Positions 4,260 to 26,114 of a stretch of DNA of 48,763 nucleotides are shown here, piece after piece. Within the stretch, counting starts at the first letter, position 1. Each line of letters starts with the position of its first letter. Location of the stretch: positions 1 through 48,763 of IMG/VR virus record IMGVR_UViG_3300043640_000055; one strand, given 5' to 3'. Made by a program: the position numbers and the translations under genes. The notes beneath the pieces are model-generated. The model ran no database searches, had not been told where the DNA came from, and was given only the letters and a program-made list of their open reading frames with translations. Origin of the DNA: a virus.

Positions 4260-4838
4260 ATGGCACGAAGGAAACGACAGCCTTACAACCCGGCAAAGGT
4301 ACATGACCGGCGAGCTACTGATCTACTGCGGAATGCTCAAGTCTCTCCGATCGAAGTAGACGACCCAATGGAACTAGGCGCCAAGCTCATGGTCATGAGA
4401 TCCACCAGGAACGACCCACTGGCGAATCTTCACGCCCGTAAATCGATCGATGAAGCGCAGTACGCCGGGGGTAGGGCTTTCCAGCAGGATTTCGAAACCG
4501 CGGAACGGGGGCCGAAGGCAATTGATCCATCCCAGCCGTATGTCGATTGCTCCCGCGTCGAGCGTGGCATCTCAGCGGCCATTAGCAAGGCGCTGGATGG
4601 CCTGACGAAAGCCCGCGATGAGCTGGGCCAGAACGGCGGGGCGCTCATGCATGACTTCCTAATTGAAGGCCTGAACGTCGTGGAGATCGGCATCAAGCGC
4701 GGCATGGTTTCGGAATTGGAGCTTAAGTATCTCGGCAAGAGGGTTCGGGAGTGTCTCGAATCTCTGGCTATCGTTTACGGGTATGCAATGCAGTGCCGCC
4801 GATCAGAGAAACCCCTTATTTCATTGAACAACTTGTAG
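4260..4838 (+). CDS. Putative regulatory protein; possibly a late-gene activator of the GafA/DUF6456-like type (tentative)
   Basis: 192-aa ORF and the last gene of the early arm. NDPLANLHARKSIDEAQYAGGRAFQQDFETAE resembles a motif I associate with alphaproteobacterial GTA/phage activators; this is from memory and unverified. Confidence 0.4.
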   Translation: MARRKRQPYNPAKVHDRRATDLLRNAQVSPIEVDDPMELGAKLMVMRSTRNDPLANLHARKSIDEAQYAGGRAFQQDFETAERGPKAIDPSQPYVDCSRVERGISAAISKALDGLTKARDELGQNGGALMHDFLIEGLNVVEIGIKRGMVSELELKYLGKRVRECLESLAIVYGYAMQCRRSEKPLISLNNL

Positions 4839-4882: not shown

Positions 4883-5125
4883 ATGATGAGAGACGAAGCA
4901 CTTAAAAAATTGAAGTCGTGTAATCGCGGGCTTTGCATTTCTGATAAGTCGATGGAGGCCAGTCTTGACGGCTACGTCGCCCTCGGGATGCTCAAGCTGG
5001 ATGAGCCGAAGAGCATTGAGATGAGATTTTTTGATGCCTTCAACAATTTAAAGCCCGGCTTTCGACTTGCTGCGAACCTTCTGGGAGCCATTGATGCAGC
5101 TGGCCTCAAGGTCGTCGAGAAGTAG
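4883..5125 (+). CDS. Hypothetical protein (80 aa), lower-GC cassette
   Basis: AGGAGGG RBS 7 nt upstream. Locally AT-richer than its flanks. Confidence 0.5.
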   Translation: MMRDEALKKLKSCNRGLCISDKSMEASLDGYVALGMLKLDEPKSIEMRFFDAFNNLKPGFRLAANLLGAIDAAGLKVVEK

Positions 5126-5126
5126 C

Positions 5127-5270
5127 ATGAAGCCTAAGCGTGGAATTTGGTGCCCTCGTCACCCCGAAGAGAGGCTAGTTAAAATACATATGCCCAGCGG
5201 GAAGATTGATTTGCGTTGTCCTGGTTGCACGGCGGACAGAGTTGCCTCGATCCGGGTTTTGGAGAAATAG
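5127..5270 (+). CDS. Small Zn-ribbon protein (47 aa)
   Basis: ATG 5127 lies 1 nt after the upstream stop. Cysteine pattern CPRH...CPGC. Confidence 0.45.
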   Translation: MKPKRGIWCPRHPEERLVKIHMPSGKIDLRCPGCTADRVASIRVLEK

Positions 5271-5271
5271 C

Positions 5272-5811
5272 ATGTTAGACGGTTCAAGCATCCGAGCTGC
5301 GCGCGAAGCCAAGGGCATGACGCAAGCCGAATTGGCTGAAAAGATCGGCACGTCGCAGCAGACGGTTGACAAGATCGAGCGCGGCATCATGAAGCGCACC
5401 ACCTATCTGCCGGAGATTTATCAGGTGCTCGACATTGCCGAAACCGCTAAACCGGTTTCGACCAATGGCGGGCTTACCCCGCTAATGGTCCTCCGAACCA
5501 TCCTATGCGCCAACCCGACCGCAGAGCAGATATTGGCGGCGCTGGCGGCGAATGGGTTTAAGATTGTGCCTGAAAATGAAATGAGCGAGTGGGTCGATGT
5601 TGAAACGGAAAAGGACTGGCTTGACCCGCTGGCATTCGTCAACGAGATCATGAAGCGCCGTAAGGTTTCATCAACCGAACTGGCACGCGCGGCTGGCCTA
5701 GCGGCGTCTACGCTTAACAGGTGGCTGCGAAATGACGGTTCGGAGTCCCTGACCGTTCGCACCCTCCAGAAAATCAGGGAATGGGATCGAAGCCAAGGAG
5801 AGCAATCTTGA
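5272..5811 (+). CDS. XRE-family regulator with two HTH regions
   Basis: N-terminal REAKGMTQAELAEKIGTSQQTVDKIERG (HTH_3 type). C-terminal second HTH-like segment VSSTELARAAGLAASTLNRWLRN. Confidence 0.75.
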   Translation: MLDGSSIRAAREAKGMTQAELAEKIGTSQQTVDKIERGIMKRTTYLPEIYQVLDIAETAKPVSTNGGLTPLMVLRTILCANPTAEQILAALAANGFKIVPENEMSEWVDVETEKDWLDPLAFVNEIMKRRKVSSTELARAAGLAASTLNRWLRNDGSESLTVRTLQKIREWDRSQGEQS

Positions 5812-6020
5812 CCCCTGAGCAGAAAGCCGTCGCGTTCATCGCGAGGTGGGAGGCGGTTGTAGCCATGGTAACGACCGGGACTCCGATCGGGTTAGCGTTG
5901 GTGGCTAGCCTCGAAGATGACGACTGGGGACTCGTGTACGCGGCGACGACAAGACTCGTTAATGAAGTGGCGACCAAGCGGGCGACGGTTGTGCCATTTC
6001 CCAAGAAGCCCAGTGCATAA
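5808..6020 (+). CDS. Hypothetical protein (70 aa)
   Basis: TTG 5808 preceded by AGGAGAG and overlapping the upstream stop. The track offers 5781 as an alternative start. Confidence 0.4.
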   Translation: MTPEQKAVAFIARWEAVVAMVTTGTPIGLALVASLEDDDWGLVYAATTRLVNEVATKRATVVPFPKKPSA

Positions 6021-6044
6021 CCATACACCCCTGTACGTTGCCAC

Positions 6045-6072
6045 TTGACCGGTCCGACAAATCAGGTACATT
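6045..6072 (+). promoter_or_regulatory. Sigma70-like promoter TTGACC-N16-TACATT
   Basis: Read directly. Hexamers closely resemble the PL (TTGACC/TACATC) and PR (TTGACG/TACAGA) hexamers of this genome. Confidence 0.4.
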
Positions 6073-6078
6073 CACTAC

Positions 6079-6240
6079 CATCAAGTGATTTGCGGCTTCG
6101 GTCGCTCAACAGCTTCCCCCATCCGAATATCAACCCTTAGGGTCGAGAGCCCGTGAAAGATCGGACCGCGAAAGCGGGGTAGGGTGGGGGAACATAAAAC
6201 AGAGCCGCCCCGAGGTCCATCCTCGCCGGGCGGCTTTTTG
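6079..6240 (+). ncRNA. Candidate ~160-nt structured sRNA (no family assigned)
   Basis: No credible ORF on the + strand. UUCG-capped hairpin GCGGC-UUCG-GUCGC at 6092-6105, GAAA-capped hairpin CCGC-GAAA-GCGG at 6166-6177, and a strong intrinsic terminator at the 3' end. Confidence 0.35.
6203..6240 (+). terminator. Rho-independent terminator
   Basis: Stem agccgccc/gggcggct with inner stem cgagg/cctcg, followed by TTTTT. Confidence 0.75.
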
Positions 6241-6276
6241 CGGGTCTTGGCCATCGGATTGGCTGGCGCTCTCGTT

Positions 6277-6286
6277 ATGTGCACAT
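6277..6286. repeat. Perfect 10-bp palindrome ATGTGCACAT (operator-half-site-like)
   Basis: Read directly. Same ATGTGCA heptamer as in the PL/PR operators. Confidence 0.85.
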
Positions 6287-6299
6287 GACGGTTTTGCCT

Positions 6300-6326
6300 A
6301 GGGTTCGAGTCCCTTCGCCCGCTCCA
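6300..6326 (+). other. Orphan tRNA-Gly-like 3' fragment (T-arm plus acceptor plus CCA), not a complete tRNA
   Basis: agggttcgagtcccttcgcccgctcca is near-identical to the 3' end of E. coli tRNA-Gly(CCC) as I recall it (AGGGTTCGATTCCCTTCGCCCGCTCCA). No D or anticodon arm can be folded upstream. Confidence 0.6.
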
Positions 6327-6358
6327 AGGCTTTTGCGTTCAACCCATGGGAGATTGAG

Positions 6359-6493
6359 ATGAACTCCAATAAACCGCTAAGCAGATATTATCTGGCCCGG
6401 ATGGCGTCTGATGATCGTAGGGCGGCTGAAGCCAAGCGCCGATACGCTGAAGAGCGCGGTCTCAACCCGATCACACTGAAGCCGCTCGGCTAA
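6359..6493 (+). CDS. Small protein (44 aa)
   Basis: GGGAGA RBS. MNSNKPLSRYYLARMASDDRRAAEAKRRYAEERGLNPITLKPLG. Confidence 0.4.
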   Translation: MNSNKPLSRYYLARMASDDRRAAEAKRRYAEERGLNPITLKPLG

Positions 6494-6555
6494 TTCAATC
6501 TCACACCGCATTGGCTGAAGCGGATTAACGGTCACCCAATCATTGGAGTCGTGGG

Positions 6556-6663
6556 ATGATGTTTTCGATTGGGCTAATCGCTGGCTTTGTGGCTGGTGTT
6601 ATCGGCTTCGCCGCGTTTGTGGCGTGGGTAAGGAAGAGTCCGCCGAATTTCCTGCCTTGGTGA
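6556..6663 (+). CDS. Micro membrane protein (35 aa, 1 TM)
   Basis: GGAG 7 nt upstream. MMFSIGLIAGFVAGVIGFAAFVAWVRKSPPNFLPW. Confidence 0.4.
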   Translation: MMFSIGLIAGFVAGVIGFAAFVAWVRKSPPNFLPW

Positions 6664-6726
6664 AGCCTCGGGACTGCAAGCTGAACGATGACAGCAGAGA
6701 CAAACTGGCTGGTGAGGTGAATCGGA

Positions 6727-6885
6727 ATGACAGACAACGTGATTTTTGGCGTCGACTTCAAAGCTAAAGCTGAGAAGGAGCGGGAAGAGCAAAAGCCGCT
6801 GACTGGCGATCCGTGCATCGACGTTCCGGAGAACTGCCCGTGCGAGACGGTCGTTTATTTCGCGCCGGAAACGGATCCAGCCTAA
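6727..6885 (+). CDS. Small acidic Cys-containing protein (52 aa)
   Basis: GGTGAGG upstream. MTDNVIFGVDFKAKAEKEREEQKPLTGDPCIDVPENCPCETVVYFAPETDPA. Confidence 0.4.
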   Translation: MTDNVIFGVDFKAKAEKEREEQKPLTGDPCIDVPENCPCETVVYFAPETDPA

Positions 6886-6924
6886 CCAATTTAGGGGCGT
6901 GCATCACACTTCCCGGAGTGAACA

Positions 6925-7110
6925 ATGAGCGCGCTTATCGCAATGATTATCCCGATCATCGTTATTGTGGTCGTGGCCCTGGTTATAATTTGGGTAACCG
7001 AACGGTTCTCGCCTGACCCGTTAATCACGAAGATCATCAAGGTTGTCGTATTCGCCGTGGTGCTAATCGCACTGCTGATGAAGTTGGTTCCGTTGCTGGG
7101 GCTGAAATAA
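6925..7110 (+). CDS. Two-TM small membrane protein (61 aa); holin-like topology
   Basis: GGAG RBS. Two hydrophobic spans, IAMIIPIIVIVVVALVIIWV and VVVFAVVLIALLMKLVPLL. Confidence 0.55.
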   Translation: MSALIAMIIPIIVIVVVALVIIWVTERFSPDPLITKIIKVVVFAVVLIALLMKLVPLLGLK

Positions 7111-7124
7111 TACAAACATCTGAT

Positions 7125-7454
7125 ATGAAACCGAAAAAGACAATACCTACCCAATCTGTGGGCCAGCCGCCGGTTAGGCAGATCGCCAAGCTGAACGTGG
7201 CCGCATTGGCTCGCCGGCATGGCGAGAAAGCCATTCAGACCTTGGCTGATAAGTTGGACCACGAAGACCCGCGTGTGGCGATAGACGCGGCCGGCAAACT
7301 ACTGGATCGTGGCTACGGAAAGCCGACACAGACGATTGAAAGAGGCGACAAATCGCCGGATTTGATGGACGATGTTGAACTTCTCGACGCCATCCGTGAA
7401 GCCGCTCTTGGAGACATGGGCGAAACGGGAACGGATTCGAAACTCACTCACTGA
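7125..7454 (+). CDS. terS: Terminase small subunit
   Basis: Lies immediately upstream of and overlapping TerL. Basic N-terminus and an AGKLLDRGYGKP motif common in small terminases. Confidence 0.6.
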   Translation: MKPKKTIPTQSVGQPPVRQIAKLNVAALARRHGEKAIQTLADKLDHEDPRVAIDAAGKLLDRGYGKPTQTIERGDKSPDLMDDVELLDAIREAALGDMGETGTDSKLTH

Positions 7455-8814
7455 ATGGTGCCGGCTGTGTGGCTTTGAACCGGCTGCACATCATGTCCTG
7501 CTGATTGATGCTTTGGAGGCTGTAGAACGGGGCGACGTTCGCCGGCTGGCAGTCTTCATGCCGCCAGGCTCAGCCAAATCGACCTATGCGAGCGTTTTGT
7601 TCCCGCCATGGCTCATGCAGCGCCAGCAACATTCAAATTTGTTGGCCGCGTCACACACAACTGAACTGGCGGAAAAGTGGGGCCGGCGCATCCGGAACCT
7701 GATATCGGAGCATTCGACAACGCTTGGTATCTCGCCAGCTTTGGACAACCAGGCGGCGGGCCGCTGGGCATTAACGACGGGTGCCGAATATTACGCGGCT
7801 GGTGTTCGAACGGGGATCGCGGGCTTTCGCGCCAAGATTGGCTTGATTGACGACCCCATTCGGTCGCTTCAGGACGCCGACTCTGAATTGATCCGCGACC
7901 GCACATGGGATTGGTACATCAACGATTTCAGGACGCGGCTTGTTCCTGACGCGGCGGAAATTCTGATCCAAACCCGCTGGCATGAGGACGACCTTGCCGG
8001 GCGCTGTCTGGCGCACAGCAAGTGGGATGTGATTTCGCTTCCAGCGATTTGCGAGAGCAAAGACGACCCGCTTAACCGCAAGGTTGGCGAGCCACTTTGG
8101 AACGATGACAAATACGGATATGGCGGGCAGCTTTTGGAGATAGCCAAGAACACGCCGGCCAGAACATGGTCTGCGCTTTATCAGCAACGGCCGGCGCCTG
8201 AGGACGGCGATTACTTCAAGGCTGAATGGCTGCGGCCCTACACTGAAAAGCCTGCAACCGAGACAATGCGGGTTTATGGCGCGTCGGATTATGCGGTCAC
8301 GGCGGATGGCGGGGACTACACGGTACACGGCGTTGTTGGGTTGGACCCGGAAGGCCGGCCATGGCTGCTTGATGTCTGGCGCGGGCAAACGGATTCGGCA
8401 GTCTGGATCGACGCCTGGTGTGACATGGTGCTTGATTGGAAGCCCATGGAGTGGGGCGAGGAAGGCGGGCAGATCAGGGCCGCCGTTGGTCCTTTCATCG
8501 ACAGGCGGGCGCGGGAACGCAACGTGTTTGTGTATCGTCGGCAGATACCGTCACGGCACGACAAGGCGATCAGGGCACAATCTATCCGGGGTTTGATGGC
8601 GACGCGAGGGCTGTACGTTCCCGTCAATGCGCCATGGTATCCGGCATTCAGGGCTGAGTTGCTGAGCTTCCCGGCCGGCAAGAATGACGATCAGGTGGAT
8701 TTTCTCAGTTTGGTTGGGCAATTGCTCGACACGGCTTTCAATGGGCAACTTGGCGAGGACGAAGACGATGACCGCAGCCAAGACCGTGGCCGTTCCAGCG
8801 TGACGGGCTACTGA
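7372..8814 (+). CDS. terL: Terminase large subunit
   Basis: Walker A-like MPPGSAKST, IQTRWHEDDLAGR, and a C-terminal nuclease region with NDDQVD. The start is uncertain (ATG 7372, GTG 7396 or TTG 7408), but must lie inside the terS 3' end. Confidence 0.9.
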   Translation: MLNFSTPSVKPLLETWAKRERIRNSLTEWCRLCGFEPAAHHVLLIDALEAVERGDVRRLAVFMPPGSAKSTYASVLFPPWLMQRQQHSNLLAASHTTELAEKWGRRIRNLISEHSTTLGISPALDNQAAGRWALTTGAEYYAAGVRTGIAGFRAKIGLIDDPIRSLQDADSELIRDRTWDWYINDFRTRLVPDAAEILIQTRWHEDDLAGRCLAHSKWDVISLPAICESKDDPLNRKVGEPLWNDDKYGYGGQLLEIAKNTPARTWSALYQQRPAPEDGDYFKAEWLRPYTEKPATETMRVYGASDYAVTADGGDYTVHGVVGLDPEGRPWLLDVWRGQTDSAVWIDAWCDMVLDWKPMEWGEEGGQIRAAVGPFIDRRARERNVFVYRRQIPSRHDKAIRAQSIRGLMATRGLYVPVNAPWYPAFRAELLSFPAGKNDDQVDFLSLVGQLLDTAFNGQLGEDEDDDRSQDRGRSSVTGY

Positions 8815-10931
8815 TGCTCTACAAACCAACCGAGCGGGAGAAGTCGCCGAACCTCACCAAAACGCTGGCGAAGCTGCTTGAGTACGAGGCGTCCCAGAAC
8901 ATCGCCGAAGACATCCTTGACCGGAAAGACGGCCAAGATCTGATTACCAAGATCGGCGGCGACGTAGAACGCAAATACAAGATTGACAAGGCCTCCCGCT
9001 CCGATTGGGAGGAATCGTCCAACCGGGCCATGGACATCGCGCTTCAGGTCAGGAAGCCAAAGAATTACCCGTTCGATGGCGCCGCAAATATCAAATACCC
9101 GCTCGTTACCGTTGCTGCATTGCAATTCGGAGCAAGGGCTTATCCAGCCATTGTGGATGGCGCCCGTATCGTCAAGGCCCAGGTCGTTGGCAATGACATG
9201 GGCGTTCCGATCAAGGACGAGAACGGCGATCCTCGTGTAGACCCGATGAGCGGGGAGCCGCTGTGGATCAAGAAGCCGGGCGAGAAGCGCGCCAAGGCCG
9301 ATCGCGTCTCGAAGCACATGTCCTACCAGCTCCTCAACGAAATGGAGGAATGGGAGGAAGACACCGACGTTCTGTTGCACCATCTGCCCATCGTCGGCTG
9401 TGCGTTCCGCAAGGTGTGGCGTTCGGAAACCTTGGGCCGGAACAAATCGGAGATGGTCCCCGCCATCAATCTGGTGGTGAACAACAAATGCCGGTCACTG
9501 GACGAGGCGCCGGCTGTTACCCACGAGGTCTATGTTTACCCGCAGGATATCGAGGAGCGGAAGCTTTCCGGCCTTTGGCTGGACATTGATTTGCCCGATC
9601 CCGTCGCGGATGGGGACAACGACGAAGACGCGCCGCATCTGTTCCTTGAGCAGCATTGCTTCCTCGACCTTGACGAGGATGGCTATCGTGAGCCCTACAT
9701 CGTCACGGTGCACAAGGAATCCTGTCAGGTCGTCCGCATCGTCGCCAACTTCCGGATGGAAGACGTAAAGGACAACGGCAAGAAGATCATTCGCATCCCG
9801 AAGGATCAGTATTTCGTCAAGTACAGCTTTATCCCCGATCCCAAAGGAGGCTTCTACGATATCGGGTTCGGTCGATTGCTCGAAAGCCTTGGCGAGACGA
9901 TCGATACCACGATCAACCAAATGCTGGACGCTGGTCATCTCCAGAATGCTGGCGGTGGATTTATCGGAACCGGCATCCGCTTAAAGAAAGGCGGGCAGAT
10001 CAAGGTTTCGCCGGGCAAGTTCGAACAGGTCGAGACTTCAGGCAAGCTTGGCGATCAGATCCACATGCACCAGTTCCAGGGGCCGTCCCCTGTGCTGTTT
10101 CAGTTGCTCGGAATGATGGTCGAAGCCGCAAAGGACATCACTGCGGTCAAGGATATCCTGACCGGCGATACCAACGGACAGGTGCAGACCGCCACGACTA
10201 CGCTGGCGATGATCGAGCAGGGATTGAAGGTCTTCACGGCGATTTACAAGCGCATCTATCGTGCCTTGAAGGACGAGTTCAAGCTTCTGTTCATCCTCAA
10301 TGCCCGGCATATCGATGAGAAAGCCTATTACATCTTCAACGACGAGCAGGAAGTAGTCGAGAAGGCCGATTACGACACTGGCTCGATGGATATCTGCCCC
10401 GTGGCCGACCCGAAGATGGTCACGGACATGCAGCGTGCAGGCCACGCGCAGCTCCTGATGCAGATTGCCGAGCATCCCGCGTTTGGACCGCTTCAGGACG
10501 CCGCGGAAGCCCTCAGGCGGGTTTACGATGCGATGGGCGTGCAGGAGCCGGACAAGCTGTTCAAGAAGCAGGGGCCGCCGAGCCCCGGCGAGCAGGCCCA
10601 GATGGAGGAATTGCAGTCCAAGACCGCCAAGAACGTGGCGAGCGCGCACAAGGACGCAGCGACGGCTGATAAGGTCACTGCGGAAACGCAACTGTTGCCG
10701 GCAAAGGCCCTTGTCGATGTATCTACGGCAAAGCACAAGGATGCGCTGACGGCTCAGACATTGACCGATGCGAATTTGGCCCCGGCCGGGGCCATTCTCG
10801 ACGCTCACGCGCAGGATATGGAAGACCAGCACAGGCACGCTGACCGTCAGGTTGCCATTGACGAGAAGAAAAAGGACCGTGAGCAGGCGGCGGTTGTCGC
10901 GGCGGATAAGAAGGCCACGGCTGAAGCATGA
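8814..10931 (+). CDS. Portal protein
   Basis: 705 aa directly after TerL (TGATG overlap). Long helical Ala/Gln/Lys-rich C-terminal barrel-like tail. Confidence 0.85.
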   Translation: MLYKPTEREKSPNLTKTLAKLLEYEASQNIAEDILDRKDGQDLITKIGGDVERKYKIDKASRSDWEESSNRAMDIALQVRKPKNYPFDGAANIKYPLVTVAALQFGARAYPAIVDGARIVKAQVVGNDMGVPIKDENGDPRVDPMSGEPLWIKKPGEKRAKADRVSKHMSYQLLNEMEEWEEDTDVLLHHLPIVGCAFRKVWRSETLGRNKSEMVPAINLVVNNKCRSLDEAPAVTHEVYVYPQDIEERKLSGLWLDIDLPDPVADGDNDEDAPHLFLEQHCFLDLDEDGYREPYIVTVHKESCQVVRIVANFRMEDVKDNGKKIIRIPKDQYFVKYSFIPDPKGGFYDIGFGRLLESLGETIDTTINQMLDAGHLQNAGGGFIGTGIRLKKGGQIKVSPGKFEQVETSGKLGDQIHMHQFQGPSPVLFQLLGMMVEAAKDITAVKDILTGDTNGQVQTATTTLAMIEQGLKVFTAIYKRIYRALKDEFKLLFILNARHIDEKAYYIFNDEQEVVEKADYDTGSMDICPVADPKMVTDMQRAGHAQLLMQIAEHPAFGPLQDAAEALRRVYDAMGVQEPDKLFKKQGPPSPGEQAQMEELQSKTAKNVASAHKDAATADKVTAETQLLPAKALVDVSTAKHKDALTAQTLTDANLAPAGAILDAHAQDMEDQHRHADRQVAIDEKKKDREQAAVVAADKKATAEA

Positions 10932-11164
10932 TCGACCGCGAATCCTTTGATGAATGGATGGCCCATCCCGTCACCGAACACGTTCTAAAGCGTGTCGGCG
11001 AACTGGCAGAACAGAACAAGCAGAAATGGATTGACCAATCCTGGGGGCAGGGCATCTGTGATCCCATGACATTGGTTGATTTGAAAGCGCGGGCAGAAGC
11101 CGCGAAAGACCTGAGTGAACTGAAATATGAGGATGTGAGCGACGATGAAACAGACAAATCTTAA
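10928..11164 (+). CDS. Hypothetical head-module protein (78 aa)
   Basis: ATGA overlap with the portal stop. Confidence 0.55.
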   Translation: MIDRESFDEWMAHPVTEHVLKRVGELAEQNKQKWIDQSWGQGICDPMTLVDLKARAEAAKDLSELKYEDVSDDETDKS

Positions 11165-11492
11165 GGTGTTGGATGGCGGCAATCCGAGCGGTATTCGGCC
11201 GACCGAGTTCAAGGTGTTGATCCTACCGACCGAAGTTTCCGGCATGATCGGCAACATTCACATTCCAGACGAGCACAAGGACCGCGTGCAGTTTGCTCAA
11301 CAGGAGGGCGTAATAGTGGCGCTGGCGCCGCTGGCTTTCACTTATGACGAGTGGAAGGGCGTCGAAGATCAGAAGCCCAAGCCGGGCGATAGGGTGCTGT
11401 TCGCGAAGTTCGCTGGCTTTGACCACAAAGGCAAGGACGGCAAGAAATACCGCGTCGTCAACGACAAAGACGTGTCTGCCGTCATCGACTGA
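11145..11492 (+). CDS. GroES/Cpn10-like co-chaperonin
   Basis: IRPTEFKVLILPTE...IHIPDE...GVIVALAP...KPGDRVLFAKFAG...DGKKYRVVNDKDVSAVI parallels the GroES pattern I.P..DRV+V.....GI.+P.....G.V+AVG....VK.GD.V+F..Y.G......+.+++.E.DILAV+. Confidence 0.6.
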   Translation: MKQTNLKVLDGGNPSGIRPTEFKVLILPTEVSGMIGNIHIPDEHKDRVQFAQQEGVIVALAPLAFTYDEWKGVEDQKPKPGDRVLFAKFAGFDHKGKDGKKYRVVNDKDVSAVID

Positions 11493-11515
11493 CCCGATCC
11501 GAACAATTCGATCTG

Positions 11516-11545
11516 ACCCGCCCGCCATTTCGGCGGGTTTTTCTT
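11516..11545 (+). terminator. Rho-independent terminator/attenuator inside the head operon
   Basis: cccgcc-atttc-ggcggg followed by tttttcttt. Homologous to the terminator at 26088. Confidence 0.7.
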
Positions 11546-11555
11546 TGGAGTTAAC

Positions 11556-12491
11556 ATGGATACCGAAACAGATACCGACAACGTCCTTGAAGACTTCGTG
11601 GACGACAGCCCAGCCGAAGACATCGACAAGGCCAAATCAATCGGATGGAAAGACCCGTCCGAATGGAAGGGCAATCCCCCGAAGAACGGGTTCGTCAAGG
11701 CCAGCGCCTATCTTGAGCGCGCCAAGACGGTGATCCCGATCATGCGGTCGCAAACCGTCAAGCTTGAGACGGAACTGGCGGAAGCGAAAGCCGAGCTGAA
11801 ATCCTTCAAGGAAGGCACGGCGAAGACCATCGAGAATATGTCGCGCATGACGAAAGTCGCGCTCGATCGCCAGCGCACCCAGCTTGAGGACAAATATTCA
11901 AACGCGATCGATGCCGCAACCGAGGTCGGTGACAAGACCGAGGTTCGCAGGCTACGAGACGCCGAACGCAAGGATCTGAAAGCCTTTGACGAGGCCGCCG
12001 AGGAGTCCAGACCGGACGAGAAGGAAACCGCAGCAGCCAAGGAGAAGGTCAACGCAGCGCTTCCCAAGGACGTACAGGACACCATCAGCGAGTGGATATC
12101 GGTCAACCCCTGGTATTCAACCGATGCCGGAATGCAGGCCCTGGCGAATTCATACCACGGCAAGCTTCTGAAGGATAAGCCGGGCATGTCCCTGGCTGAC
12201 AATCTTGAGGAAACCCGCAAGGAAGTCGCCAAGCGGTATCCGGAAAAATTCGGTGTTGAAGATGAACCGGACGACGATGAAAAGCCTGCGCGCGGCTCTC
12301 GCGTTGAAGGTGGTTCTCGGGTGGCTGGCGGAGGTGGCGGGTCAAAGTTCTCGAAACTCCCGGCCGACGCCAAAACCCAAGCCGACAAGTTCATCAAGGA
12401 TGACGGGCTTTTCCTTGAAAAGGGCGAGACTGCCGAAAAAGACCTAGCCAAGGCGCGTGAACGATACGCCGCCGCATATCTGGAGAATTGA
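11556..12491 (+). CDS. Scaffolding protein
   Basis: Acidic, Lys/Glu/Ala-rich and coiled-coil-like. Lies between the portal and capsid genes. GGAG RBS. Confidence 0.6.
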   Translation: MDTETDTDNVLEDFVDDSPAEDIDKAKSIGWKDPSEWKGNPPKNGFVKASAYLERAKTVIPIMRSQTVKLETELAEAKAELKSFKEGTAKTIENMSRMTKVALDRQRTQLEDKYSNAIDAATEVGDKTEVRRLRDAERKDLKAFDEAAEESRPDEKETAAAKEKVNAALPKDVQDTISEWISVNPWYSTDAGMQALANSYHGKLLKDKPGMSLADNLEETRKEVAKRYPEKFGVEDEPDDDEKPARGSRVEGGSRVAGGGGGSKFSKLPADAKTQADKFIKDDGLFLEKGETAEKDLAKARERYAAAYLEN

Positions 12492-12494
12492 GCC

Positions 12495-12986
12495 ATGACC
12501 GACGTTGAAATCAAGCGCGGTCCCGGCCGCCCGCCCCGCACCGAGGAAGTCAAGACCGAGCGCCGCCGCCGTCAGGGCATGGGCGCCGAACGTAACCTGA
12601 AGCTGTTCGTTCCCGAGCAGGCCAAGGACCCTAATTTCGTCTATCGGTTCGTCAATGACCGGCCCGGACGGGTCAAACAACTTACCCAGATGGACGATTA
12701 CGAGATCGTCTCATCGGAGGACGGCAACATTGATCCCGGCACAGCCGAGGGAACCGTCGTCAAGCGAACCGTGGACCGCAGCGAGGGCGAAGAAGCCGTC
12801 CTGCTGCGCAAGCCACGTCAGTACTACGAGGCAGATAAGGCCGAAGAGCAGAAATTGCTGGACGAACGCGACGAAGAGTTGCGCGCCGGCAAGGTTCAAA
12901 GCTCCGAAGGCCTGAGTGGATCAGAGGCATATGTTCCCGGTGGCCGCAGAGGTCAGGACGGACGAAACACCGTCGCGGGGAAGTAG
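12495..12986 (+). CDS. Head-morphogenesis protein of unknown role (163 aa)
   Basis: ORF track; basic N-terminus RGPGRPPRTEEVKTERRRRQG. Confidence 0.5.
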   Translation: MTDVEIKRGPGRPPRTEEVKTERRRRQGMGAERNLKLFVPEQAKDPNFVYRFVNDRPGRVKQLTQMDDYEIVSSEDGNIDPGTAEGTVVKRTVDRSEGEEAVLLRKPRQYYEADKAEEQKLLDERDEELRAGKVQSSEGLSGSEAYVPGGRRGQDGRNTVAGK

Positions 12987-13025
12987 GGCCAACACACCCT
13001 TCCTTTCAATTATCAGGAGGCCATC

Positions 13026-13604
13026 ATGGCTAATCCATCCACTCCGAACGGGGCTGTTCCCGTGCGGACGTTGACTGGTCCCTATACGGGAGCCACCAAC
13101 GCCTATTCGACTGCCGCTGGCGACAGCGTTCTGCTTGGTATCGGCGACTTCGTAAAGCTCGCCGGCACGTCTCAGCTTATCGGCGACGTGACCTATGCCG
13201 ACGTTGCCCGAGCTGCTACCGGCGATGTTATCGTCGGCGTGGTTACTTCTTGCGTGCCCGCAACCCGCGATTCCACCGTGTATCGCGCGGCCTCGACGGC
13301 CACGATTGTCAACGTCTGCGACGATCCGACTGTGCTTTTCGAAATTCAGGAAAGCGCCGCCGGCACTTCGTTGACCGCAAACGATATTGGCCTGAACGCC
13401 AACTTCGTTGTGGCGAACGCATCCACTGCCACGGGCCTCTCTGCGACGACCCTCAACAACGCCACGGAAGCGACCGCCAACACGTTGGATCTCAAGATCA
13501 TCGGCCTTGCCAACAAGCCGAACAACGCTGTGGGTGAATCCGCCAAGTGGATCGTTCGCATCAACCGACATCAGTACGTCGATCAAATCGCCGGACCGGC
13601 GTAA
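13026..13604 (+). CDS. Putative capsid decoration/cement protein (192 aa)
   Basis: AGGAGG RBS. Thr/Ala/Asn-rich and beta-rich. Lies immediately upstream of the major capsid gene. Confidence 0.45.
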   Translation: MANPSTPNGAVPVRTLTGPYTGATNAYSTAAGDSVLLGIGDFVKLAGTSQLIGDVTYADVARAATGDVIVGVVTSCVPATRDSTVYRAASTATIVNVCDDPTVLFEIQESAAGTSLTANDIGLNANFVVANASTATGLSATTLNNATEATANTLDLKIIGLANKPNNAVGESAKWIVRINRHQYVDQIAGPA

Positions 13605-13616
13605 GGAGATAGGCAC

Positions 13617-14519
13617 ATGCCCGCTGGAACAATCACTACTGGTAACCATCCCAAAGCCTTGTGGCCTGGGATGCATGCATTCTTCGGTACGACCTACGGG
13701 GAGTATCAGGAGGAATGGCGCGACCTCGTTGAGGTCCAGAAGTCCGCGAAGAACTACGAGGAAGACACCCTCGTTACTGGTTTCGGTCAGATGCCGATCA
13801 AGCCGGAAGGCTCCGGTATCAGCTACGATTCCGAAACCCAGGGCTTCACCAAGCGCTATACCCACACGGTATGGGGCTTGGGCTACATCGTCACGCAGGA
13901 AGAATTGGAGGACAACCTCTATGAGGTGGTTTCCAAGAAGCGCATCAAGCGCCTCGCCTTCTCTGCGCGGCAGACCAAGGAAAACGTGGTCGCGAACGTC
14001 TACAACCGCGCCACCACTTCCGGCTACAACGGCGGCGATGGTGTGGTTCTGCTCTCGACATCGCATCCGTCAACGGCCGGCAACTGGTCCAACAAGCTCT
14101 CGACCGCAGCCGATCTTTCGGAGGCTGCGCTTGAGGACATGATGATCCAGATCGCGCAGGCCAAGAACGATCGCGGTCACGTGATCAATCTGAAGCCGAA
14201 GAAGCTGCTCATCCCGTCGAACCTGATGTTCGACGCCAAGCGCATCCTCAAGTCGGATAGGCAGTCCGGTACGGCGAACAATGATCTCAATGCCCTGAAG
14301 GGGGAGATTGACTACTCGGTCAATCACTACTTCACGGATGCGGATCAGTGGTTCATCCGGACTGACGCGGCTCAGGGTATGCAGTTGTTCGATCGTCGTG
14401 CTCTTTCGTTCACGCAAGATAACGACTTCGACACTGAGAACGCCAAGGCCAAGTGCACCATGCGCTTCTCGGTCGGCTGGTCCGATCCGCGCGGCGTGTT
14501 CGGCAGCGAAGGCGCGTAA
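13617..14519 (+). CDS. Major capsid protein (HK97 fold, Mu gpT-like)
   Basis: 300 aa with a strong RBS, followed by a stable hairpin. Length and layout fit HK97-type major head subunits. Confidence 0.8.
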   Translation: MPAGTITTGNHPKALWPGMHAFFGTTYGEYQEEWRDLVEVQKSAKNYEEDTLVTGFGQMPIKPEGSGISYDSETQGFTKRYTHTVWGLGYIVTQEELEDNLYEVVSKKRIKRLAFSARQTKENVVANVYNRATTSGYNGGDGVVLLSTSHPSTAGNWSNKLSTAADLSEAALEDMMIQIAQAKNDRGHVINLKPKKLLIPSNLMFDAKRILKSDRQSGTANNDLNALKGEIDYSVNHYFTDADQWFIRTDAAQGMQLFDRRALSFTQDNDFDTENAKAKCTMRFSVGWSDPRGVFGSEGA

Positions 14520-14524
14520 CTAAC

Positions 14525-14548
14525 GAGGGCGGGGGAAACTCCGCCCTC
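14525..14548 (+). terminator. Post-capsid hairpin (partial terminator or stabiliser)
   Basis: gagggcgg-gggaaact-ccgccctc, an 8-bp GC stem followed by a weak T tract. Confidence 0.5.
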
Positions 14549-14611
14549 TTCCACCTCACCATCGGATTCCTTTAACCAAGGCGCAACCCGCGTCGATTGG
14601 GAGAATTTTCC

Positions 14612-15595
14612 ATGACTGTCTATTCCAACTATCCGAACGGTTTCGCCAATGGCGTGACCATGAAAAGCCTGCCTATCCTGCAGACCAATCCCGGCAAGGT
14701 GTTCTGGGTTTCGAACGTCACGACCGGCCTTTTGCAGGGCCAGCGCGGCGGCTCTGACGGTAACCGCGGCACTTTCGACAGCCCGTTCTCATCGCTGAAC
14801 TACGCAATCTCTCAGTGCGTCGCGAACCGTGGTGACATGATCTTCATCAAGCCGGGCCATGCGGAATCGATCATCTCCGCAACCGCGCTGAACTTCAATA
14901 TCGCTGGCGTGCAGATTCGCGGCCTCGGAACCGGATCAAACCGCCCAACGTTCACGTTCACGACGGCCAACACGGCGACCATCCCGGTATCGGCCAACAA
15001 TATGTCGATCTCGGGTTGCCTGTTCGTCGGCAATTTCCTGTCGATCGCATCGGCCTTCACGGTCGCGGCGGCTGCGGATTTCGAGGTTGACGGCAACGAG
15101 TTCCGCGATACCAGCGCAATCCTCGGCTTCCTGTCGATCGTCACCACGACGGTTTCGGTTAACTCGGATGGCCTGCGCTACACCAACAACATCCGCAAGT
15201 CCGACGCGACCACCACGCCGGGGCCTGATGTCGTTGTCGCCAACACCATGAGCCGGCTGAAGGTCAACGGCAACAAGACCGTTCATACCGTGGCATCAAA
15301 CAACATTGCGGCCCTGCTGGAGCATGGCGCGCTTGTGATGACGGATGCGGAAGTCGTCGGCAATTACGTCTATTCGGTCAACACCGATACGGCGACCGGC
15401 GCCATCCTGGTGAAGACCACGGCCACGACCGGATCGGGCATCATCGCTCACAACCGGATCAGAGCGCTGGACGTGGCGGCGGCGATCATCGTGCCGAGTG
15501 CTGCTGTGCAGTACGGCATGTTTGACAACCTCTACATCGGCGACGGCACGCAGAATTCGGGCTTCCTCCTGCCCGCAATCGGCACCGACTCCTAA
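14612..15595 (+). CDS. Right-handed beta-helix (pectate-lyase-fold) virion protein; tailspike/depolymerase-like
   Basis: ATG 14612 after GGGAGA. N-terminal GTFDSPFSSLNYAISQCVANRGDMIFIKPGHAE followed by repetitive beta-helix-type segments. Confidence 0.65.
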   Translation: MTVYSNYPNGFANGVTMKSLPILQTNPGKVFWVSNVTTGLLQGQRGGSDGNRGTFDSPFSSLNYAISQCVANRGDMIFIKPGHAESIISATALNFNIAGVQIRGLGTGSNRPTFTFTTANTATIPVSANNMSISGCLFVGNFLSIASAFTVAAAADFEVDGNEFRDTSAILGFLSIVTTTVSVNSDGLRYTNNIRKSDATTTPGPDVVVANTMSRLKVNGNKTVHTVASNNIAALLEHGALVMTDAEVVGNYVYSVNTDTATGAILVKTTATTGSGIIAHNRIRALDVAAAIIVPSAAVQYGMFDNLYIGDGTQNSGFLLPAIGTDS

Positions 15596-15603
15596 CGTCA
15601 ACC

Positions 15604-15635
15604 GGGCGGGGCTTCGCAGCCTCGCCCATTCTTTT
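15604..15635 (+). terminator. Rho-independent terminator
   Basis: gggcggggc-ttcgca-gcctcgccc (9-bp stem with one G-U pair) followed by attctttt. Confidence 0.65.
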
Positions 15636-15646
15636 GGGAGCGCCGC

Positions 15647-16036
15647 ATGGCTAATACCATCACCAAGACAACCATTCTCGACGGCCCGCGCAACTTCGTC
15701 CTGCTGCTCAACATCTCGGGCGACGGCTCGGGCGATGAAACCAACACCAATATCTTTACCCGCGCGTCGTTTGCCCCGACGACCGGGACGGAAATCGTCA
15801 TTGAAAAGGTCGCGGGCAATCTGAACGGCTTTACCGCAACGCTGATTTTCGACGCCACGACTGATCTGCCCGTCGTGTCATGCCCGGCCACTTGGTTCGA
15901 ATACGACTGGAAATGCTTTGGCGGGGTGTCTTCGAACAAGGCCGGTGCCGGGGCTGCTGGCGACATTCTCCTGTCCACGGTTGGGCTCGGCTCTGGCGAG
16001 AAGGGCACGATCATGATTGAGTTGAAGAAGATCTGA
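15647..16036 (+). CDS. Small virion-associated protein (129 aa)
   Basis: ORF track; GGGAG RBS. Confidence 0.55.
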   Translation: MANTITKTTILDGPRNFVLLLNISGDGSGDETNTNIFTRASFAPTTGTEIVIEKVAGNLNGFTATLIFDATTDLPVVSCPATWFEYDWKCFGGVSSNKAGAGAAGDILLSTVGLGSGEKGTIMIELKKI

Positions 16037-17991: not shown

Positions 17992-18018
17992 GCCTCACCA
18001 AACGCCCTTCATAATCTC
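17980..18018 (+). repeat. 39-bp perfect direct repeat, copy 1 (acgatgccgtaggcctcaccaaacgcccttcataatctc)
   Basis: Read directly. Spans the last codons and stop of the esterase fibre gene plus 27 nt identical to the reverse-complemented 3' end of gene 27610..27804. Confidence 0.95.
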
Positions 18019-18044
18019 CCCCCCGACCATCAAGAGGACAGACC

Positions 18045-26087: not shown

Positions 26088-26114
26088 CCGTCCATTTTGG
26101 GCGGGTTTTTCTTT
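26088..26114 (+). terminator. Rho-independent terminator (homologous to 11516)
   Basis: ccgtcc-atttt-gggcgg followed by gtttttcttt. Shares ggcgggtttttctttg with the 11516 terminator. Confidence 0.65.

What the first reader, a model, noticed from the sequence alone, without database searches (positions are those of the whole stretch)
6045..6240. Candidate promoter-to-terminator sRNA (~160 nt) with UUCG and GAAA tetraloop hairpins
Between the accessory cassette and the late genes lies a 340-nt stretch with no credible ORF. It opens with TTGACC-N16-TACATT, the same hexamer style as PL and PR but without an operator. It contains GCGGC-UUCG-GUCGC (6092-6105) and CCGC-GAAA-GCGG (6166-6177). It ends in a long GC hairpin plus U5 (6203-6240). 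Stable tetraloops together with a dedicated promoter and terminator are typical of a structured regulatory RNA. Its position beside a second XRE regulator is loosely reminiscent of the P22 immI region, which uses the sar antisense RNA. I could not assign it to a known RNA family.
Basis: inference. Interest (0 to 1): 0.65.

Follow-up and report, generated by a model that had tools for sequence, protein, structure and literature searches.

The report
Phage late-operon promoter, leader and terminator
The proposed small RNA gene is most likely the start of this soil phage's late operon, a strong promoter followed by a stop signal that a phage protein related to the GafZ anti-terminator probably overrides, so the ~160-nt RNA is the stalled leader transcript and not a dedicated regulator.

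Summary
That includes TTGACC-N16-TACATT (6045-6072), the UUCG and GAAA hairpins, and a strong GC hairpin plus U5 (6203-6239).

Comparison with about 100 related phage loci changes the meaning. The promoter and the first ~20 transcribed bases form a conserved module. It lies just downstream of a DUF6456 (GafA/GafZ-like) gene and upstream of the terminase and head genes in 51 of 93 related phage loci. In 42 of the 52 loci scored, an intrinsic terminator follows within 260 nt, usually within about 40 nt.

This layout matches the late-gene anti-termination switch of phage lambda (PR'-qut-tR', whose terminated product is 6S RNA or StxS). Here it is paired with a GafZ-type regulator instead of Q.

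The window carries an unusually long leader. A roughly 100-nt structured insert (6094-6200) is seen only in its closest soil relatives.

It is flanked by a short direct repeat and is absent from a co-occurring variant.

A discrete ~160-nt RNA is therefore plausible. A trans-acting role for it is unproven, and no RNA-seq data exist. The P22 immI/sar analogy is not supported.

The parts
4260..4838 (+). 192-aa DUF6456-related protein (GafA C-terminal/GafZ family). It is the candidate anti-terminator acting on the promoter at 6045.
   Evidence: There are 1465 homologs. 38 of 40 aligned homologs match PF20057, best E 1.1e-7; the window protein itself scores E 0.03, below Pfam's cut-off. The AlphaFold model's best PDB matches are sigma-factor region-4-like domains, but weakly (prob 0.7-0.84, E > 0.4). 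In relatives this gene directly precedes the promoter module.
4883..6020 (+). Lineage-specific cassette inserted between the regulator gene and its promoter. It holds an 80-aa ORF, a two-HTH XRE protein (5272-5811) and a 70-79-aa ORF (5781/5808-6020).
   Evidence: Pfam and PHROG results. The cassette is absent from L084, L092, L201, L254, L256 and others, where the promoter starts within about 0-20 nt of the DUF6456 stop codon.
6021..6044 (+). Conserved block upstream of the -35 hexamer (CCATACACCCCTGTACGTTGCCAC). It contains the small inverted repeat TACA-N4-TGTA and may be an auxiliary protein-binding or UP-like site.
   Evidence: It has the highest depth among variant soil contigs in this stretch. 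It is also present in the Bradyrhizobium lablabi prophage L096 as CCATACACCTCTGTATGTTTCGC.
6045..6072 (+). Late promoter: -35 TTGACC, a 16-nt spacer GGTCCGACAAATCAGG and -10 TACATT. The palindrome CGGTCCG (6049-6055) spans the last base of the -35 and the start of the spacer; CAAATCA (6058-6064) lies in the spacer.
   Evidence: Consensus scan. It is the only + strand sigma-70-like site in 20 kb of late genes. The family profile hits it at E 3.1e-10. The spacer motif GGTCCrGCAAATCA is conserved in relatives, and the palindrome changes symmetrically (CTGGTCCAG or CCGGTCCGG).
6073..6098 (+). Conserved initial transcribed region (...CCATCAAGTGATTTGCGGCTT). TGATTTG (6086-6092) is the inverted repeat of the spacer's CAAATCA. 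The transcription start is inferred at about 6079-6080.
   Evidence: It is invariant among soil variants that diverge elsewhere. It is conserved as CGCAAGTGATTTGC in 28 unique loci. Inverted repeat I2 spans 6047-6064 and 6086-6103.
6092..6105 (+). UUCG-loop hairpin (GCGGC-UUCG-GUCGC). It overlaps the outer arm of the DNA inverted repeat.
   Evidence: Fold results. The variants carry a loop change, C6099A, and U6102C, which turns a G-U pair into G-C.
6114..6192 (+). Lineage-specific structured insert. An 11-bp C-rich/G-rich closing helix (6114-6124 with 6182-6192) encloses three hairpins, including the GAAA hairpin at 6166-6177.
   Evidence: MFE and centroid structures agree and inverted repeat I3 matches the closing helix. 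Only close soil variants carry it. It has no homolog in IMG/VR, JGI metagenomes or any fetched locus. No Rfam family matches.
6203..6239 (+). Intrinsic terminator, the analogue of lambda tR': hairpin AGCCGCCCCGAGG-UCCAU-CCUCGCCGGGCGGCU followed by U5.
   Evidence: Hairpin energy -22.4 kcal/mol and inverted repeat I5. A terminator sits in the equivalent place in 42 of 52 loci, against 26 of 250 control windows.
6240..6326 (+). 87-nt degenerate tRNA-like element of tRNA-Gly lineage with an encoded CCA end. It has G1-C72, C2-G71, G3-C70 and U73, and a canonical T-arm. Its anticodon/variable region is aberrant and enlarged.
   Evidence: ARAGORN at default settings calls nothing. At a 90% threshold it calls an 87-nt tRNA with two mismatches in the anticodon stem and C33. 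The 3' 26 nt are identical to genuine phage tRNA-Gly and tRNA-Arg genes. Alignment to leader-borne tRNA-Gly(UCC) genes of L184, L234 and L236 supports the lineage. The element is flanked by the direct repeat GGCTTTT(T)GCG (6232-6242 and 6328-6337). A contig in the same sample joins 6231 to 6328 and lacks it.
6328..6361 (+). Conserved junction block carrying the ribosome-binding site and start codon of the first late ORF (6359-6493).
   Evidence: High depth in variant soil contigs, with joints that swap the downstream ORF.

Best explanation
Region 6021-6239 is the control region of the phage's late operon, built like lambda PR'-qut-tR'.

**Proposed mechanism**
1. A near-consensus sigma-70 promoter (6045-6072) starts transcription at about 6080.
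2. Without the regulator, RNA polymerase stops at the intrinsic terminator (6203-6239). This releases a leader RNA of about 160 nt and keeps the downstream genes silent.
3. The phage's DUF6456 protein (4260-4838) is a relative of the GTA regulators GafA and GafZ. It is proposed to bind the conserved element in and around the promoter: the CGGTCCG palindrome and CAAATCA in the spacer, and the inverted TGATTTG in the early transcribed region.
4. The protein then loads onto RNA polymerase and makes it resistant to termination.
5. The modified polymerase reads through this terminator and later ones to transcribe about 20 kb of genes: small membrane-protein ORFs, the small and large terminase subunits, and the portal, head and tail genes.

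**Lineage-specific additions**
- The ~100-nt structured insert (6094-6200) is lineage-specific, so it is probably not needed for the switch.
- The tRNA-Gly-like element (6240-6326) is likewise a lineage-specific addition, so it too is probably dispensable.

**Shown**
- The conserved sequence architecture.
- Its position between the DUF6456 gene and the packaging genes.
- The enrichment of terminators after the promoter block.
- The family-level similarity of the protein to DUF6456.

**Inferred**
- Promoter activity.
- Termination at 6239.
- Binding of the protein to the promoter elements.
- Anti-termination itself.
For: **1. The promoter block is conserved next to the DUF6456 gene in phages.**
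- An nhmmer profile of the promoter block finds it downstream of the DUF6456 gene in 51 of 93 phage loci.
- It finds it in only 1 of 79 host-type loci, and that one (L096) is a Bradyrhizobium prophage.
- A profile built without the window hits only 6041-6094 in the window (E 3.1e-10).

**2. A terminator follows the block.**
- 42 of 52 loci have an intrinsic terminator within 260 nt of the block, and 33 of them within 57 nt. Control windows give 26 of 250.
- The closest relatives L253, L254/L255 and L256 show TTGACCGGTCCACCAAATCAGGGTACATT..., then about 20 nt, then the terminator.

**3. The gene order fits a late operon.**
- The order is regulator gene, promoter, terminator, small ORFs, terS, terL, portal.
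- 6045 is the only + strand sigma-70-like site in 6000-25999.
- Further + strand terminator-like hairpins lie inside the operon at 11520, 15604 and 26088. Reading through them would need processive anti-termination.

**4. The protein resembles GafA/GafZ.**
- 38 of 40 homologs match PF20057/DUF6456.
- GafA homologs are annotated as DUF6456 (PMC9638019).
- GafZ is an anti-terminator whose binding palindrome lies between -35 and -10 and which lets polymerase bypass a terminator (PMC11150451).
- The model's best structural matches are sigma region-4-like folds, as reported for GafZ and GafA.

**5. The spacer palindrome changes symmetrically among relatives.** It appears as CTGGTCCAG, CCGGTCCGG or CGGTCCG, as expected for a dimer-binding site.

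**6. Soil variants keep 6014-6098 and replace what follows.**
- One variant runs from 6092 straight into a terminator.
Against: - No transcript data exist, so promoter use, the start site, termination and read-through are all unverified.
- The window's own protein scores below Pfam's DUF6456 threshold (E 0.03).
- I could not compare it directly with GafZ or GafA sequences.
- The structural matches are weak (E > 0.4).
- A 1.2-kb cassette separates the regulator gene from the promoter here.
- 10 of 52 relatives show no terminator by my criteria, and in some a tRNA or tRNA-like element takes its place.
- No clear sigma-dependent pause element (a -10-like hexamer in the early transcribed region) was identified.
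- The conserved promoter elements could equally serve a classical activator or repressor.
- The insert at 6094-6200 remains unexplained.
Confidence: 0.72

Rival explanations
1. A regulatory small RNA acting in trans. This could be a dedicated sRNA gene, or a dual-use leader like StxS or Gifsy-1 IsrK. In that case the terminated ~160-nt RNA accumulates in lysogens and base-pairs with host or phage mRNAs.
For: - The region has its own near-consensus promoter, a Rho-independent terminator with a U-tail and a stable fold (z -3.84).
- The lambda-type late promoter is constitutive, and its terminated product is a functional sRNA in Stx phages (PMC7547250).
- The insert's variant changes fall in loops and linkers, or strengthen pairs (C6099A in a loop; U6102C turns G-U into G-C).
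Against: - Only the first ~20 nt are conserved among relatives; the structured part is confined to one narrow lineage.
- The count of complementary 10-mers to the phage's own + strand is within the range of shuffled controls (19 against a mean of 8.6 and a maximum of 21).
- No Rfam family matches.
- No RNA data exist.
- As an exclusive explanation it ignores the position directly upstream of the late operon.
Confidence: 0.2
2. A cis-acting sensor (riboswitch or attenuator). The four-way junction binds a ligand or factor and decides whether the terminator at 6203-6239 forms.
For: The layout resembles an aptamer closed by a long helix and followed by an intrinsic terminator.
Against: - I found no alternative anti-terminator pairing between the junction strands and the terminator arms when inspecting the sequence by eye.
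- No Rfam riboswitch matches even at E <= 10.
- Most relatives lack any such domain and still have the terminator.
Confidence: 0.04
3. A processed cloverleaf RNA of the P4 CI / P1-P7 C4 type. In those systems, as I recall, RNase P cuts an antisense RNA of about 77-79 nt out of a leader transcript. Here the 79-nt four-way junction and/or the adjacent tRNA-like element would be released by RNase P and act on the same transcript.
For: - A cloverleaf-like topology spans 79 nt at 6114-6192.
- A tRNA-like RNase P substrate starts exactly after the U-tract.
- tRNAs, or tRNA-like elements ending in CCA, recur in the leaders of related phages.
- Two 10-nt complementarities link 6141-6164 to + strand 14096-14119.
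Against: - No Rfam match to any family.
- The two complementary blocks are in the wrong order for a single duplex, and I estimate they would arise by chance with p about 0.06.
- There is no CCA or RNase P-type 3' end after 6192.
- The insert is not conserved beyond close variants.
Confidence: 0.06

Closest known systems
Phage lambda and Stx-phage late control region: PR'-qut-tR', with the terminated transcript known as 6S RNA or StxS
   Same: - A strong sigma-70 promoter sits between the anti-terminator gene and the late (lysis/packaging/head) genes.
- A conserved element lies in the -35/-10 spacer and in the early transcribed region.
- An intrinsic terminator follows a short distance downstream.
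- The predicted product is a short terminated leader RNA.
- tRNA genes can sit in the same leader. I recall this for Stx phages; it is seen here.
   Different: - The regulator is not a Q-family protein; it is DUF6456/GafZ-like.
- No sigma-dependent pause element was identified.
- The host is probably Bradyrhizobium or another alphaproteobacterium.
- This window has an extra ~100-nt structured insert and a degenerate tRNA-like element.
GafZ/GafYZ anti-termination at the Caulobacter GTA cluster promoter (Tran & Le 2024, PMC11150451), and GafA of Rhodobacter capsulatus (PMC9638019)
   Same: - The regulator belongs to the DUF6456 family at the family level and has a sigma-region-4-like HTH.
- A palindromic element lies between -35 and -10 of the single target promoter.
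- A terminator downstream must be bypassed to express a head/tail gene cluster.
   Different: - This is a genuine temperate phage (integrase, attP and terminase present), not a GTA.
- The terminator is a compact intrinsic hairpin about 40-160 nt from the start. In Caulobacter it is three 150-bp repeats after the first gene.
- No GafY-like partner was identified.
- The -35 hexamer is near consensus, so an activator may not be needed.
- The element's sequence is unrelated: GGTCCrGCAAATCA here, GCGCCCG-CTGGCGC in Caulobacter.
BrrG/Q21-like anti-termination of the Bartonella GTA bgtA-K locus (bioRxiv 10.1101/2024.11.20.624540)
   Same: A constitutive promoter, a long non-coding leader containing a terminator, and a processive anti-terminator encoded elsewhere in the element.
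   Different: - BrrG is Q21-like in structure.
- Its leader is 864 bp with a weak predicted terminator.
- There is no sequence relation to the module found here.
P22 immI sar antisense RNA
   Same: Only that it is a small phage RNA near a regulator gene.
   Different: - No overlapping antisense target exists here.
- The XRE neighbour is a lineage-specific cassette, absent from relatives that keep the promoter module.

Membership tests
Lambda-type late control region (PR'-qut-tR') | Lies between the anti-terminator gene and the late (packaging/head/lysis) genes, on the same strand | tested here: met
   The order is the DUF6456 gene (4260-4838), a 1.2-kb cassette, the promoter (6045), the terminator (6239), small ORFs, then terS (7125) and terL (7372). 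In relatives the promoter directly follows the regulator gene.
Lambda-type late control region (PR'-qut-tR') | Intrinsic terminator a short distance downstream of the promoter | tested here: met
   Hairpin at 6203-6234 plus U5, -22.4 kcal/mol. 42 of 52 related loci have one, against 26 of 250 controls.
Lambda-type late control region (PR'-qut-tR') | Conserved regulator-binding element in the -35/-10 spacer | tested here: met
   GGTCCrGCAAATCA, with a palindromic core that changes symmetrically, is conserved across 28 unique loci. Actual binding cannot be tested with these tools.
Lambda-type late control region (PR'-qut-tR') | Sigma-70-dependent promoter-proximal pause element (a -10-like hexamer in the early transcribed region) | tested here: inconclusive
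   TACCAT (6076-6081), or CATCGT in relatives, lies around the inferred start site but not at the lambda spacing. No transcription data.
Lambda-type late control region (PR'-qut-tR') | Regulator belongs to a Q protein family | tested here: not met
   The Pfam and PHROG scans of the neighbouring ORFs returned no anti-terminator family. No PDB sequence match reached E below 0.7, and no anti-terminator appears among the 50 best Foldseek matches.
GafA/GafZ (DUF6456) anti-termination system | Regulator carries the DUF6456 domain (PF20057) | tested here: inconclusive
   The window protein scores E 0.03 and 14.8 bits against a cut-off of 26.3. 38 of 40 homologs at 51-69% identity match PF20057, best E 1.1e-7. 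Many homologs carry the precomputed PF20057 flag. No direct comparison with GafZ or GafA sequences was possible.
GafA/GafZ (DUF6456) anti-termination system | Sigma-factor region-4-like helix-turn-helix fold | tested here: inconclusive
   The model has pLDDT 75 overall and above 90 for residues 110-170. The top Foldseek hits are sigma-28 and ECF sigma region 4, with prob 0.7-0.84 but E 0.4-1.4.
GafA/GafZ (DUF6456) anti-termination system | A single target promoter with a palindromic binding element between -35 and -10 | tested here: met
   The family profile gives one hit in the whole window. The palindrome CGGTCCG lies at 6049-6055. Binding itself was not tested.
GafA/GafZ (DUF6456) anti-termination system | The protein lets RNA polymerase bypass a downstream terminator | not testable with these tools
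   This needs reporter assays or ChIP. Only the presence of the terminator is shown.
Trans-acting base-pairing sRNA | A conserved seed or structure among homologs, and identifiable targets | tested here: not met
   Only the first ~20 nt are conserved; the structured body is lineage-specific. Complementarity to the phage + strand is not above shuffled controls. Host targets could not be tested.
Any curated RNA family (Rfam 15) | Covariance-model match | tested here: not met
   There were no hits at gathering score in the window. Only three chance-level hits (E 8-10) appeared in 5700-6700.
Canonical tRNA (for 6240-6326) | A cloverleaf with a 5-bp anticodon stem, a 7-nt loop and U33, detectable by ARAGORN or the Rfam tRNA model | tested here: not met
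   ARAGORN at default settings finds nothing and there is no Rfam tRNA hit at E <= 10. Only at a 90% threshold does ARAGORN call an 87-nt tRNA, with two anticodon-stem mismatches and C33. The acceptor stem, T-arm, U73 and CCA are canonical and of tRNA-Gly type.
attP core (for 6240-6326) | Lies next to the integrase gene | tested here: not met
   The integrase is at 37094-38449 (-). A different tRNA 3' fragment (37067-37099) abuts its stop codon.

The most novel reading that the evidence does not exclude
The leaders of late operons in these alphaproteobacterial phages may repeatedly recruit tRNAs or CCA-ended tRNA mimics as a working part of the switch. Three forms appear:
- genuine tRNA-Gly or tRNA-Thr genes;
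- the degenerate tRNA-Gly-like element at 6240-6326;
- a separate 65-92-nt 'GGUCCC...GGGGAUCGCCA' element seen in at least 13 loci.

One possible mechanism is RNase P/Z cleavage points that free the leader as a stable RNA and reset the 5' end of the late mRNA. The window's 79-nt four-way junction could be another such module. Together they would form an undescribed class of phage leader RNA elements coupled to GafZ-type anti-termination.
Probability: 0.15. Interest if true: 0.7.

Novelty: new variant of a known kind. Interest (0 to 1): 0.45.

Why it matters
GafZ-type anti-termination has so far been shown only for a domesticated gene transfer agent in Caulobacter. This analysis points to its likely phage ancestor in working form. 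Dozens of temperate phages of Bradyrhizobium-like soil bacteria carry a DUF6456 gene next to a conserved promoter and a compact intrinsic terminator in front of their packaging and head genes.

That gives a simple natural system for testing how GafZ-like proteins load onto RNA polymerase: one protein, a promoter element of about 55 bp and one hairpin terminator. It also allows better annotation of late promoters in alphaproteobacterial prophages.

There is a caution for genome scans as well. A promoter-plus-terminator pair with stable hairpins just upstream of terminase genes is more likely an anti-termination leader than a free-standing sRNA gene, although such leaders can also act as sRNAs, as StxS does.

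Tried and rejected
**Known RNA families**
- Rfam at gathering score and at E <= 10 gave nothing credible. It also found nothing in ten long-leader relatives.

**tmRNA or attP reading of the tRNA-like end**
- ARAGORN finds no tmRNA.
- The real attP candidate sits next to the integrase at 37067-37099.

**Search for homologs of the structured insert, to test covariation**
- No match in INPHARED phages by blastn.
- No match in IMG/VR with three patterns.
- The JGI metagenome scan for ATCAAGTGATTTGCGGCTT gave 10 loci. Only L084 is a true relative and it has a short leader. The AT-rich hits (the L083/L085-L090 family, L082, L091) look like chance.
- No match in any of about 250 fetched loci.
- Covariation analysis of 6094-6200 was therefore impossible. 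Only a handful of substitutions could be read from soil-run contigs.
- One of these, C6118A in the closing helix, is not compensated at 6188. By my own inspection of the sequence it is compatible with a one-base register shift.

**Transcript evidence**
- No RNA runs hold the sequence.

**Targets within the phage**
- Complementary 10-mers are not above shuffled controls.
- One paired hit at 14096-14119 is marginal and in the wrong order for a single duplex.

**Direct test of GafZ homology**
- The NCBIfam scan gave no hit.
- The PDB sequence search gave only chance-level matches, E 0.7 or worse.
- The 1.84-billion-protein representative search listed only close relatives.

**Host-type DUF6456 loci**
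- In Bradyrhizobium chromosomes these do not show the published gafA synteny. They sit next to a protein I judged GcrA-like from its sequence and an S24 repressor-like gene. I did not use them as evidence.

**Riboswitch-type alternative pairing with the terminator**
- I found none by inspecting the sequence.
Full report
**What is in the sequence**

- TTGACC (6045-6050), a 16-nt spacer and TACATT (6067-6072).
- GCGGC-UUCG-GUCGC (6092-6105).
- CCGC-GAAA-GCGG (6166-6177).
- A bulged GC hairpin (6203-6234) followed by five T (6235-6239).

No + strand ORF longer than 34 aa lies between 6021 and 6358.

The minimum-energy fold of 6073-6240 is unusually stable (z = -3.84). It consists of the UUCG hairpin, a four-way junction closed by an 11-bp C-rich/G-rich helix (6114-6124 with 6182-6192), and the terminator. 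Without the terminator the score is weaker (z = -2.16).

Rfam gives no hit at gathering score in the whole window. Only three chance-level hits appear at E <= 10.

Directly after the U-tract, 6240-6326 is an 87-nt tRNA-like element.
- It has a 7-position acceptor stem (GCGGGUC/CGCCCGC, six of the seven positions paired), a D-arm, a canonical T-arm (GGGUUCGAGUCCC), discriminator U and an encoded CCA.
- Its last 26 nt are identical to genuine phage tRNA-Gly(GCC) and tRNA-Arg genes.
- ARAGORN at default settings does not call it. At a 90% threshold it calls an 87-nt tRNA with two mismatches in the anticodon stem, C at position 33 and a long variable region.
- Aligned with leader-borne tRNA-Gly(UCC) genes of related phages, it carries about 10 extra bases and an altered anticodon arm.

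It is not the attachment site. The integrase is at 37094-38449 on the minus strand, and a different tRNA 3' fragment (37067-37099) abuts its stop codon.

The element is flanked by the direct repeat GGCTTTT(T)GCG (6232-6242 and 6328-6337). A contig from the same soil sample joins 6231 to 6328 and lacks it. It is therefore a discrete insertion.

**Source and relatives**

The window is held almost completely by one soil metagenome run. Other soil runs hold parts of it. No RNA run holds it.

Contigs from those runs keep 6014-6098 nearly unchanged but diverge after it.
- One goes from 6092 straight into another terminator.
- Others join 6094 or 6164 to 6328.

The conserved unit is therefore the promoter plus the first ~20 transcribed bases, not the structured RNA.

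**The neighbouring regulator**

The 192-aa protein at 4260-4838 has 1465 homologs, among them one named from Bradyrhizobium ottawaense.
- 38 of 40 aligned homologs match Pfam DUF6456 (PF20057). The window protein itself falls below the cut-off (E 0.03).
- Its AlphaFold model (pLDDT 75) best resembles sigma-factor region 4 domains, though weakly.

The literature gives the context.
- GafA homologs are annotated as DUF6456 proteins (PMC9638019).
- Caulobacter GafZ, the equivalent of the GafA C-terminus, is a transcription anti-terminator. It binds a palindrome between the -35 and -10 of the GTA cluster promoter and lets polymerase bypass a downstream terminator (PMC11150451).
- A preprint argues that GafZ and GafA resemble Q21 in structure.

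**The conserved module**

I fetched phage loci through the terminase and through the DUF6456 alignment, and genome loci through the same alignment.

In phage loci, the sequence just after the DUF6456 stop codon is a promoter of the same design: TTGACn, GGTCCrGCAAATCAcc, a -10 hexamer, then CATCGTCGCAAGTGATTTGC or close variants.
- A profile of this block hits 51 of 93 phage loci.
- It hits only 1 of 79 host-type loci, and that one is a prophage of Bradyrhizobium lablabi.
- Built without the window, the profile finds 6041-6094 as the only hit in the window (E 3.1e-10).

Terminators follow the block.
- 42 of 52 loci have an intrinsic terminator within 260 nt after the block, and 33 of them within 57 nt.
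- The control figure is 26 of 250 windows.
- The terminators are often nearly the same sequence: CCCGCCCGGAGAAATCCGCGGCGGG followed by a T-run.
- The contigs of the closest protein homologs show the same short form.

Downstream come small ORFs, terS, terL and the portal gene.

In the window, 6045-6072 is the only + strand sigma-70-like site in 20 kb of late genes. Further + strand terminator-like hairpins lie inside the operon.

**Interpretation**

This is the logic of lambda PR'-qut-tR'.
- A constitutive late promoter has a regulator-binding element in its spacer and early transcribed region.
- An immediate terminator makes a short leader RNA.
- A processive anti-terminator is encoded just upstream.

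Here that regulator is GafZ-like rather than Q-like.

Elements in and next to the window's spacer fit this reading.
- The palindrome CGGTCCG (6049-6055) starts at the last base of the -35 and runs into the spacer. It appears as CTGGTCCAG or CCGGTCCGG in relatives, a symmetric change expected of a dimer site.
- CAAATCA (6058-6064) is the inverted repeat of TGATTTG (6086-6092).

The window's leader is one of the longest in the family. The U-run ends 145 nt after the conserved block, against about 40 nt in most relatives. The extra length comes from the insert at 6094-6200, which I could find nowhere outside close soil variants.

The few substitutions visible in those variants fall in loops and linkers or improve pairs: C6099A, U6102C, and changes at 6107, 6109 and 6132. 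C6118A in the closing helix is uncompensated, although by my own inspection a one-base register shift would keep a helix. This is weak support for the structure and says nothing about function.

**Rivals**

- *Trans-acting role for the terminated leader.* This remains possible, as for StxS (PMC7547250) and Gifsy-1 IsrK. However, the body of the RNA is not conserved, and complementarity to the phage's own transcripts is not above shuffled controls.
- *Riboswitch.* This reading lacks any alternative pairing with the terminator and any Rfam support.
- *Processed cloverleaf RNA of the P4 CI / P1 C4 kind* (from my own knowledge of those systems). The four-way junction and the adjacent RNase P-type substrate suggest it, but there is no direct support.
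- *P22 immI analogy.* This fails because the XRE gene belongs to a 1.2-kb cassette that relatives lack.

**Side observation**

tRNAs or tRNA mimics recur in these leaders.
- 7 of 92 loci have genuine tRNAs within 1.5 kb downstream of the DUF6456 gene, most of them in or just after the leader. Gly(UCC) occurs three times and Thr three times.
- At least 13 loci carry a different 65-92-nt element. A GGUCCC/GGGAUC stem stacks on a T-arm-like hairpin that varies in sequence, and the element ends in GCCA.

The window's degenerate tRNA-Gly-like element fits this theme, which deserves its own study.

**Verdict**

What it is, though, is the leader and terminator of a GafZ-type late-gene anti-termination switch, in a long-leader variant. 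Confidence is 0.72, because nothing here was tested at the RNA or protein level.

Noticed in passing
window 6240-6326: An 87-nt degenerate tRNA-Gly-like element with an encoded CCA starts right after the terminator's U-tract. It is flanked by the direct repeat GGCTTTT(T)GCG and is absent from a variant contig in the same soil sample. Changes seen in other soil runs cluster in its long central arm, and some keep pairing (6279 G>T with 6284 C>A; 6267/6268 against 6296/6295).
   Followed up: partly
L197, L198, L200, L203, L205, L206, L212, L213, L214, L220, L232 (also L179/L180 and L226), just after the late promoter: A recurrent 65-92-nt leader element. A GGUCCC/GGGAUC closing stem encloses 2-3 hairpins, and the last hairpin (7-nt or 6-nt loop) varies in sequence while keeping its pairing. 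The element ends in GCCA. It is tRNA-like, but ARAGORN does not call it and Rfam has no match. It may be an undescribed phage RNA family.
   Followed up: partly
window 37067-37099 (+), overlapping the stop of the integrase gene at 37094-38449 (-): A tRNA 3'-end fragment (GGGTCGGCGGTTCGAATCCGTCGCCGCCTACCA) lies next to the integrase. It is the likely attP core, which would mean the phage integrates into a host tRNA gene.
   Followed up: partly
window 6494-6548: A non-coding block between small late ORFs has by far the highest depth in several soil metagenomes, up to about 775x against about 10x for the phage. Contig joints around it swap the neighbouring small ORFs. It appears to be a widely shared junction or regulatory sequence, possibly related to packaging.
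   Followed up: no
window 6021-6044; L096 (Bradyrhizobium lablabi prophage): The conserved block CCATACACCyCTGTAyGTT lies just upstream of the -35 and contains a TACA-N4-TGTA inverted repeat. Other relatives carry related GGGGTA-type repeats at the same place. It may bind a second factor, such as an activator or IHF-like protein.
   Followed up: no
window 11520-11538, 15604-15627, 26088-26104 (+): Terminator-like hairpins with T-runs lie inside the late operon on the coding strand. No other + strand sigma-70-like promoter occurs in 6000-25999. This fits a single long transcript that needs processive anti-termination.
   Followed up: no
window 6141-6164 versus 14096-14119 (+): Two adjacent 10-nt stretches of the leader insert are perfectly complementary to two adjacent stretches inside a late gene (ORF 13617-14519). 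They are in the same order rather than inverted. My rough estimate is p about 0.06 for this arising by chance.
   Followed up: partly
L093-L171, e.g. L148 3404-4570: Many Bradyrhizobium chromosomes carry a DUF6456 gene about 50% identical to the phage one. In L148, the one locus I examined, it sits in a non-phage context, preceded by a protein I judged GcrA-like from its sequence and an S24/LexA-like repressor gene. The late-promoter module is absent there. This synteny differs from the one published for gafA homologs in Hyphomicrobiales.
   Followed up: partly
window 6130-6141 and 6339-6350: A 12-nt direct repeat, TCAACCCTTAGG and TCAACCCATGGG, links a hairpin of the leader insert to the sequence just upstream of the first late ORF's ribosome-binding site. 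The insert may have arisen in part by local duplication.
   Followed up: no
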